From Eledone cirrhosa (Eukaryota), in assembly GCA_964016885.1 (NCBI GenBank), contig OZ024741.1, positions 273,668,001 to 273,732,000 of the forward strand: a stretch of 64,000 nucleotides of DNA, written 5' to 3'. Numbering within the stretch: the first letter of the stretch is position 1; every line of letters starts with the position of its first letter. The notes beneath the pieces are model-generated. The model ran no database searches and was not told the origin of the DNA. It saw only the letters and a list, made by a program, of their open reading frames with translations. The position numbers and the translations under genes are program-made. This document shows, one piece after another, positions 55,353 to 56,311 of the stretch.

Positions 55353-55394
<42 letters not shown>

Positions 55395-55578
55395 TTAGAA
55401 CCCTGTAACCATTAAGCTCTAAGTATAAAGTACAAATAAATACTGATCCGATTAACAATATATAGTAAGAAACACAGTAAACCGTGTGTCTAAAATTACA
55501 AGGGTTGAAAAACCACATATGCTTGAAATATTTAACCAAGAAACAGACAGCAAATAGTGTTTGTGACATTTAATTGCA

Positions 55579-55660
55579 ATCTCTCGCTGATGAAGCCCAG
55601 GATTATCTATTACAAACACACTCAGGGCGAAACAGATTAGGGATAATCTGTCCGAGAGAT
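55579..55660 (+). ncRNA. Canonical type I hammerhead ribozyme, copy 1
   Basis: ATCTCTCG-CTGATGA-A-GCCC...GGGC-GAAA-CAGATTA-ggga-TAATCTG-TC-CGAGAGAT; all three stems perfect; GUC cleavage after C55652. Confidence 0.95.
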
Positions 55661-56050
55661 ATAATGGTTATTGAGGCGGTTTGTATTATGATAATATATT
55701 TTTGTTTTCATTTTGTCATCCTGTCTGTTTCTTGGTTAAATATTTCAAGCATATGTGGTTTTTCAACCCTTGTAATTTTAGACACACGGTTTACTGTGTT
55801 TCTTACTATATATTGTTAATCGGCTCAGTATTTATTTGTACTTTATACTTAGAGCTTAATGGTTACAGGGTTCTAATTCATATATATATTTCGGCTCTCT
55901 TACAGGATGAGCTATTAAGTTGTGCGTGTTGGACTGTTATTTCTGTTCAATACGCGCTTACCACGTTTGACTGGCGGCGCACGAGGTGATAAATTCATCT
56001 TTCTGTGTGAACGTTGGCAAATAGTGTTTGTGACATTTAATTGCAATCCA

Positions 56051-56132
56051 ATCTCTCGCTGATGAAGCCCAGGATTATCTGTTACAAACACACTCAGGGC
56101 GAAACAGATTAGGGATAATCTGTCCGAGAGAT
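56051..56132 (+). ncRNA. Canonical type I hammerhead ribozyme, copy 2
   Basis: Same fold; GUC cleavage after C56124. Confidence 0.95.
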
Positions 56133-56278
56133 ATACTGGTTATTGAGGCGGTTTGTATTATGATAATATATTTTTGTTTTCATTTTGTCATCCTGTCTGT
56201 TTCTTGGTTAAATATTTCAAGCATATGCGGTTTTTCAACCCTTGTAATTTTAGACACACGGTTTACTGTGTTTCTTAC

Positions 56279-56311
<33 letters not shown>

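What the first reader, a model, noticed from the sequence alone, without database searches (positions are those of the whole stretch)
55391..56286. Tandem canonical hammerheads defining a 472-nt non-coding monomer: candidate retrozyme / circular RNA element
Seen: two nearly identical, perfectly paired type I HHRs (8-bp stem I, GCCC/GGGC stem II, 7-bp stem III with GGGA tetraloop, GUC site) in direct repeat. The predicted cuts fall after 55652 and 56124, releasing 472 nt with no coding capacity. The element has an inverted 160-bp arm and sits in (TA)n like the PLEs nearby. Known: non-LTR retrozymes of animals are tandem HHR repeats that yield monomeric linear and circular RNAs and are thought to be mobilised by PLE machinery. 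Inference: this is a young, PLE-mobilised, circRNA-producing family. Unlike the minimal PLE HHRs here, its stable stem III should let it cleave as a monomer.
Basis: partly seen in the sequence, partly recalled or inferred. Interest (0 to 1): 0.9.

Follow-up and report, generated by a model that had tools for sequence, protein, structure and literature searches.

The report
Ribozyme repeat hitchhiking on Penelope retrotransposons
This is one copy of a dispersed family of ~470-base non-coding tandem repeats, each carrying a predicted self-cutting hammerhead RNA; its insertion ends match those of Penelope-like retrotransposons, which likely copy it around the genome, possibly from an untested circular RNA.

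Summary
Observation confirmed; interpretation mostly supported. Two type I hammerheads lie 472 nt apart. The unit is a real monomer: at least 501 ribozyme motifs genome-wide, head-to-tail arrays of up to seven crossings, subfamilies down to ~73% identity, and no coding parent in 161 loci examined. It is a non-LTR retrozyme, a known class.

The insertion ends add evidence for Penelope-like (PLE) mobilisation. 164 of 180 arms end at two internal TA motifs (A ~161, B ~237 nt after the cut), nearly all fused to (TA)n. Tail-out inverted insertions use one A and one B end (50 of 53; 16 of 17 in an older set), like the autonomous PLE nearby (5 of 5). Copies run through the cut site without stopping (0 of 180 passes).

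Corrections: the core has an extra nucleotide; most young monomers are 467 nt; a conserved upstream/loop-2 helix is predicted to out-compete the ribozyme fold or act as a pseudoknot, so efficient monomeric cleavage is not a given. Circles are untested, and some copies point to uncleaved linear templates and DNA-level expansion. The scan noted similar PLE-type inverted/tandem insertions in two other genomes.

The parts
55355..55391 (.). left (TA)n target; overlaps the element's B end (ATATATATAT)
   Evidence: sequence
55382..55550 (-). inverted arm = monomer positions 69-237, ending at priming site B; joins the forward arm with a 1-nt overlap at 55550
55550..55652 (+). 5'-truncated unit (monomer 365-472) carrying hammerhead 1
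55557..55564 (+). GTGTTTGT strand complementary to loop 2 of hammerhead 1 (55612-55619); predicted blocking hairpin or pseudoknot
55579..55660 (+). type I hammerhead 1; extra A at 55594; 26-nt loop 2; predicted cut after 55652; G>A variant at 55609 weakens the competing helix
55653..56124 (+). complete cut-to-cut monomer, 472 nt (467 plus a private 5-nt duplication at 56044-56048), non-coding
   Evidence: no ORF of 120 aa or more here
55806..55818 (+). internal TA motif, priming site A (monomer ~161-166)
   Evidence: 77 of 180 arms end here
55880..55889 (+). internal TA motif, priming site B (monomer 237); the A-B interval (~75 nt) behaves as the PLE 'tail'
   Evidence: 87 of 180 arms end here
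56024..56031 (+). GTGTTTGT strand complementary to loop 2 of hammerhead 2 (56084-56091)
56051..56132 (+). type I hammerhead 2; predicted cut after 56124
56125..56286 (+). terminal partial unit (monomer 1-162) ending at site A
56286..56311 (.). right (TA)n target
   Evidence: sequence

Best explanation
This is a non-coding, ~450-490-nt tandem repeat with a conserved hammerhead motif in every unit (a non-LTR retrozyme), likely spread by Penelope-like retrotransposon (PLE) proteins that copy its RNA into (TA)n repeats. Likely cycle: multi-unit RNA is transcribed (inferred). The hammerheads would cut out monomers that a host ligase closes into circles, which a conserved helix is predicted to keep from re-cutting (inferred from the class; about 55%). 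A PLE RT/GIY-YIG dimer would nick (TA)n and prime inside the RNA at two fixed TA motifs, A and B (the fixed ends are shown; the enzyme is inferred; about 90%). When both DNA strands prime, one uses A and the other B (shown as a pattern), both copy backwards through the cut site without stopping (shown), and the two cDNAs join, often by short microhomology, giving the tail-out inverted structure seen in the window. Some arrays later grow by DNA-level duplication (shown for 3 loci as a variant pattern). Some insertions were probably copied from uncleaved linear multimers.
For: Family: 221, 397 and 501 exact pattern hits, controls 0; arrays of up to 7 crossings. Non-coding: PLE-protein tblastn hits lie only in neighbouring insertions in 114 + 47 loci. 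PLE hallmarks: 164 of 180 arms end at A or B, 159 of these on TA repeats; 57 of 114 loci have both orientations, 56 tail-out. Outermost ends are A+B in 50 of 53 classifiable loci (3 A+A, 0 B+B, p=3e-12), and 16 A+B, 1 A+A, 0 B+B in 47 older loci (10 of 27 two-armed loci unclassifiable). The autonomous PLE family shows plain end + tail in 5 of 5 pairs with both ends seen. Two internal RT start sites defining the tail, and nicking/extension of both strands, were shown in vitro for an Anolis PLE (PMC11167929). Read-through: 0 stops at +1..+3 in 180 passes (1.1 expected); none of 175 junctions has added bases. Selection on the ribozyme: 90% identity in the hammerhead vs 48-86% elsewhere against the two oldest monomers; stems stay paired (95.9% of cells) while loop 3 varies. 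Single-unit bottleneck: lineage variants (4 or more loci) are present in all units of an insertion in 69 of 79 cases. 5' stops are enriched one turn back, at A (22 vs 9.3) and B (22 vs 7.6).
Against: No cleavage or RNA data. No compensatory base changes in any helix. No autonomous partner with homologous ends was found; the nearby PLE1 ends do not align above shuffles. In 5 loci (L014, L015, L027, L064, L148) both arms share a variant in the same unit that another unit lacks; this fits a heterogeneous linear template or arm-to-arm conversion, not a monomer circle. L064, L130 and L135 show DNA-level expansion, which could also explain unit homogeneity without circles. In the Anolis PLE, hammerhead mutants still inserted and uncleaved RNA was the main substrate. 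The A/B stop windows were chosen after seeing the data and coincide with TA microhomology. The locus sample is partly ascertained on hammerhead-containing queries; in the less biased subset, 5 of 97 passes stop at positions 5-11 and none at 1-3.
Confidence: 0.65

Rival explanations
1. Same PLE-mobilised family, but the template is the uncleaved linear multimer. The hammerhead is slow or protein-assisted and only trims transcripts; circles are absent or a by-product, and array length is regenerated by unequal crossover.
For: Same-unit variants shared by both arms in 5 loci; DNA-level expansion in L064, L130, L135; the competing helix forms first during transcription and is 3-4 kcal/mol more stable in most contexts; Anolis PLE precedent.
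Against: Lineage variants are fixed across units in 69 of 79 cases; by eye, no two of the 180 arms share a source locus's 5' junction; the hammerhead is conserved across ~27% divergence; circles are documented for coral, mussel and axolotl retrozymes (PMC7229834).
Confidence: 0.28
2. The pieces are truncated ends (pLTRs) of a coding PLE that happen to sit together, with the TA run at 55880 as a boundary between insertions.
For: PLE-like ends, inverted arm, extra core nucleotide typical of PLE hammerheads (PMC4209133); vertebrate retrozymes are homologous to pLTRs (bioRxiv 10.64898/2026.07.22.740005).
Against: The 238-365 segment is always embedded in monomer sequence; 40 complete monomers in 26 stretches; no ORF upstream in 161 loci. 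Descent from a pLTR remains likely, but the unit now moves on its own.
Confidence: 0.03
3. A satellite amplified only at DNA level, with a hammerhead-like sequence as a relic.
For: Identical units in L135 and the ABAB pattern in L064.
Against: Copies are dispersed over many chromosomes, mostly under 3 units, with fixed 3' ends, variable 5' truncation and de novo inversions.
Confidence: 0.04

Closest known systems
Animal non-LTR retrozymes (Cervera & de la Pena 2020, PMC7229834; results and discussion read)
   Same: Short, low-GC, non-coding head-to-tail repeats with one type I hammerhead per unit, no LTR/PBS/PPT, self-paired predicted circle, coexisting with PLEs.
   Different: Unit 449-487 nt vs ~170-400; extra core nucleotide, 26-nt loop 2 and 7-bp stem III. 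The circle is predicted to block the ribozyme by pairing, which that paper reports for plant retrozymes and viroids but not for most animal retrozymes. Circles are not shown here.
Vertebrate retrozymes as pLTR derivatives of PLEs (Li, Clavereau, Pollet 2026, bioRxiv 10.64898/2026.07.22.740005; parts 1-3 of 5 read, supplements not seen)
   Same: Meets their 'active' definition (two consecutive units with complete hammerheads); size within their 51-972 bp range.
   Different: Their evidence is co-occurrence and pLTR homology, and they favour local amplification. Here the evidence is insertion anatomy; no homologous PLE was found. Only 1 of their 9 tested dimers cleaved in vitro.
EN+ Penelope-like elements: inverted pLTR and 'tail' (passages of PMC3846280, and PMC8557442; main text of PMC11167929)
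   Same: (TA)n targeting, 5' truncation, partial tandems, inverted 5' copy, tail at only one end, two internal RT start sites downstream of the hammerhead.
   Different: No ORF; tail ~75 nt vs 30-40; both start sites are TA motifs matching the target, whereas the Anolis sites are non-homologous.
Non-autonomous Chlamys elements such as MRC1 (passage in PMC8557442)
   Same: Non-coding PLE parasites making multicopy head-to-tail insertions.
   Different: Those share 3' similarity with an autonomous family, and that clade mostly lacks hammerheads.
Pseudoknotted hammerheads (Perreault 2011, PMC3088659; passages read)
   Same: Watson-Crick pairing between loop II and the stem I side in about 40% of hammerheads, needed for fast cleavage where tested.
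   Different: Here the same helix can also extend into a nested hairpin that sequesters the core; which form is real is untested.

Membership tests
non-LTR retrozyme | head-to-tail repeats with a type I hammerhead in each unit | tested here: met
   40 cut-to-cut monomers in 26 stretches, arrays to 7 crossings
non-LTR retrozyme | non-coding, low GC, no LTR organisation | tested here: met
   no ORF of 120 aa or more in the element; GC 0.36 for 55001-56000; PBS/PPT not searched for specifically
non-LTR retrozyme | unit size of a few hundred bases | tested here: met
   424-487 nt; above 170-400 of PMC7229834, inside 51-972 of the 2026 preprint
non-LTR retrozyme | canonical type I core with loop 1-loop 2 contacts | tested here: inconclusive
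   all conserved core bases present but extra nucleotide and long loop 2; Rfam below threshold; possible pseudoknot without covariation
non-LTR retrozyme | self-cleavage at the predicted site | not testable with these tools
   needs in vitro assay; conservation only
non-LTR retrozyme | monomeric linear and circular RNAs in vivo | not testable with these tools
   the tandem junction is identical to a circle junction, and only contigs were available
non-LTR retrozyme | highly self-paired predicted circle | tested here: met
   circular MFE z -2.7 to -6.1 in 5 of 5 monomers, 60-65% paired, 25 shuffles each
non-LTR retrozyme | coexistence with autonomous PLEs | tested here: met
   young PLE family with open frames to 1167 aa
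non-LTR retrozyme | large target-site duplications when present | not tested
   ends lie in (TA)n, where TSDs cannot be read
autonomous Penelope-like element | RT + GIY-YIG ORF | tested here: not met
   none attached in 161 loci
PLE-mobilised element | inverted 5' copy, tail at one end, microsatellite target | tested here: met
PLE-mobilised element | homology to the pLTR of an autonomous PLE | tested here: inconclusive
   no match to the two coding PLE families tested; tens of thousands of PLE candidates untested

The most novel reading that the evidence does not exclude
This family records a PLE twin-priming rule: one RNP dimer nicks both strands of palindromic (TA)n and assigns site A to one strand and site B to the other, rolling around a circular, conformationally switched ribozyme RNA. 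That would explain together the PLE inverted repeats, the one-sided tail and the more-than-unit tandems, and supply a 470-nt minimal substrate to test it.
Probability: 0.3. Interest if true: 0.75.

Novelty: new member of a known kind. Interest (0 to 1): 0.48.

Why it matters
How animal retrozymes move, and how PLEs make inverted repeats with a one-sided tail, are both open questions in the papers read. This family gives countable genomic footprints for PLE mobilisation of a retrozyme (fixed internal priming sites, A+B in 66 of 70 classifiable two-armed insertions, seamless passage through the ribozyme site) and a short natural substrate for in vitro tests. Its hammerhead is an unusual variant with a possible on/off helix. 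The class itself is known.

Tried and rejected
Rfam: the whole-window search was swamped by microsatellite/miRNA hits; the focused search gave HH9 at 15.6 bits only. Expression: no RNA holder listed; the four runs laid were contigs of unrecorded kind from two organism labels and two studies, and show presence only. Covariation: no double-sided change in 28 pairs over 27 copies. Parent PLE: none in 114 + 47 loci; PLE1 and PLE2 ends do not align above shuffles. One 49-nt match to the tail of a second hammerhead family had p=0.005 among 24 comparisons, not significant after correction. The possible splice acceptor + ATG at 55901-55911 is not conserved across subfamilies and was dropped. A pile-up of 5' ends at the cut site, expected from cleaved linear templates, is absent. 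Pfam found only a weak RVT_1 hit for the window PLE fragment and nothing for the 1167-aa frame, so PLE identity rests on RT and GIY-YIG motifs read by eye; clade names are recalled. Literature searches in the open library (hammerhead + octopus; retrozyme + cephalopod; PLE + twin priming) listed no paper describing this family or an A+B rule; subscription papers and supplements were not seen, and the lineage terms were my untested guess. Dropped before counts: L083-L085 (segmental copies of L082), L070 in variant counts, arms under 35 nt, TA- and indel-prone columns.

Full report
Observation. The window is G000:C2:273668001-273732000 of a 3.0-Gb, TA-rich genome. Two type I hammerhead motifs lie on + with cores at 55587 and 56059. 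Alone, each folds into stems I, II and III with predicted cuts after 55652 and 56124. The repeat is 97% identical over 270 nt, and 55382-55550 is a 99% inverted copy. The core carries one extra base between A9 and stem II and a 26-nt loop 2, so Rfam scores it far below threshold. An unpaired base at this place is described as typical of PLE hammerheads (PMC4209133). A 2001 viroid paper on such a base was seen only as a reference title.

The unit is real. A search with the 472-mer gave 139 matches from 40 scored of 1307 candidates. Exact patterns gave 221, 397 and 501 hits with 0 for the controls. I merged 150 loci into 117 stretches and used 114, then added 47 older loci. Forty cut-to-cut monomers in 26 stretches measure 424-487 nt; the window's differs from a 467-nt copy by one substitution and a 5-nt duplication. 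Subfamilies reach ~73% identity with the same layout. The segment after the TA run at 55880 always sits inside monomer sequence, and no PLE reading frame is attached.

How it inserts. Of 180 arms, 164 end at one of two internal TA motifs, A (~161) or B (~237), and 159 of these run into TA repeats; 5' ends are scattered. Half of the loci (57 of 114) have two arms, 56 of them tail-out. Their outermost ends are A+B in 50, A+A in 3, B+B in 0 and unclassifiable in 4 (p=3e-12 against independent choice). Single-arm loci use both ends (33 B, 22 A, 2 other). The older set repeats this: 16 A+B, 1 A+A, 0 B+B, 10 unclassifiable. The window itself is B on the left, A on the right. The autonomous PLE at 18732-22599 and four relatives with both ends in view show plain end + ~60-nt tail in 5 of 5 (ten candidate pairs fetched, four had both ends inside). 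A tail at one end of inverted pLTRs is a known PLE feature (passages), and two internal RT start sites with activity on both strands were shown for an Anolis PLE. I infer that a PLE dimer primes both strands of the self-complementary (TA)n, one at each site. By BLAST ends, 28 of 48 simple inversion junctions overlap by 1 nt or more.

What the template is. Copies cross the cleavage site cleanly: 0 stops at +1..+3 in 180 passes, and 175 junctions with no added bases (157 identical, one shifted by 2 nt). The template is therefore covalently continuous there: a circle or an uncleaved multimer. For a circle: lineage variants are present in every unit of an insertion in 69 of 79 cases, and 5' stops cluster one turn back at A and B (22 vs 9.3 and 22 vs 7.6; post hoc windows, TA microhomology confounds). 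Against an all-circle model: five loci share a variant between both arms in one unit but not another, and L064 (ABAB), L130 and L135 (six identical internal units) grew at DNA level, which can homogenise units without circles. Variants with only 2-3 carriers are mostly discordant (36 vs 11), as recurrent mutation or mixed templates would give. I put the circle step at about 55%.

The ribozyme. It is the best conserved part: 90% vs 48-86% for other regions against the two oldest monomers. Stems stay paired while loop 3 varies (GGGA, TCCC, AATCTC, ACGCCA), but there are no compensatory changes. An upstream GUGUUUGU is complementary to loop 2 in 99% of cells. In nested folding it extends to a hairpin that buries the core: stem I probability falls from 0.98 in isolation to 0.11 or less for hammerhead 2 in context, and the helix has probability 0.98 or more in 8 of 10 circular monomers; hammerhead 1 and one old copy fold less one-sidedly. 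The same pairing could instead be an activating pseudoknot, common in hammerheads (PMC3088659), which this software cannot model. Most animal retrozyme circles are predicted to leave the ribozyme free, so a blocking helix would be viroid-like.

Comparison and verdict. It works like, and on testable features is, an animal non-LTR retrozyme (PMC7229834); a 2026 preprint already argues these are non-autonomous PLE derivatives. Cleavage and circular RNA could not be tested. No homologous autonomous partner was found among the two coding families checked. New here are the family, its variant hammerhead, and countable insertion footprints tying a retrozyme to PLE machinery. Two earlier notes of this scan describe similar PLE-type inverted or tandem insertions in other genomes; I did not check them and they did not change my reading. 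Novelty: new member of a known kind. Interest 0.48.

Noticed in passing
window 18732-22599: Tail-out insertion of a young coding PLE (RT + C-terminal GIY-YIG, two stops in this copy) with minimal hammerheads at 18925 (-) and 22406 (+). The 150 scored matches are 96-100% identical, with open frames up to 1167 aa; a candidate mobiliser by age and target, without sequence homology.
   Followed up: partly
window 41725-42030, 50215-50385, 60846-60972: Second hammerhead-bearing family (extra core base, 3-bp stem III), 5183 first-look candidates, with the same two TA ends about 75 nt apart; shared upstream sequence ends after ~250 nt with no common ORF in the part of the output seen. Possibly another non-autonomous PLE parasite.
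   Followed up: partly
window 42106-43587: Broken PLE of another clade; no CTGANGA within 700 nt downstream in 30 of 30 relatives.
   Followed up: partly
window 56311-56690 and 56777-57025: Two further palindromic insertions in (TA)n next to the element, each with an extra ~60-70 nt on one arm only, i.e. the same one-sided tail.
   Followed up: no
L154, L156, L163 vs window 55640-55643: Loop 3 reads TCCC in older subfamilies and GGGA in younger ones, the exact reverse complement: likely a hairpin-loop microinversion.
   Followed up: partly
L064 (G000:C1:42756346-42759532): Five full units in an ABAB pattern; four carry a stem II-breaking G>C change, so the array grew after the ribozyme was damaged.
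   Followed up: yes
L082-L085 (G000:C1:217.4-217.7 Mb): One insertion copied four times with its flanks: segmental duplication.
   Followed up: partly
window 28144-28245: 5S rRNA-like match, 44.3 bits, above the gathering score of 38.
   Followed up: no
window 32235-35886 and 6568-7051: A 17-bp satellite of ~216 copies and a 61-bp tandem repeat of ~8 copies.
   Followed up: no
window 54570-54760 and 41640-41725: A short interspersed repeat that also interrupts several family copies (L260, L267, L268); SINE-like by appearance, not tested.
   Followed up: no
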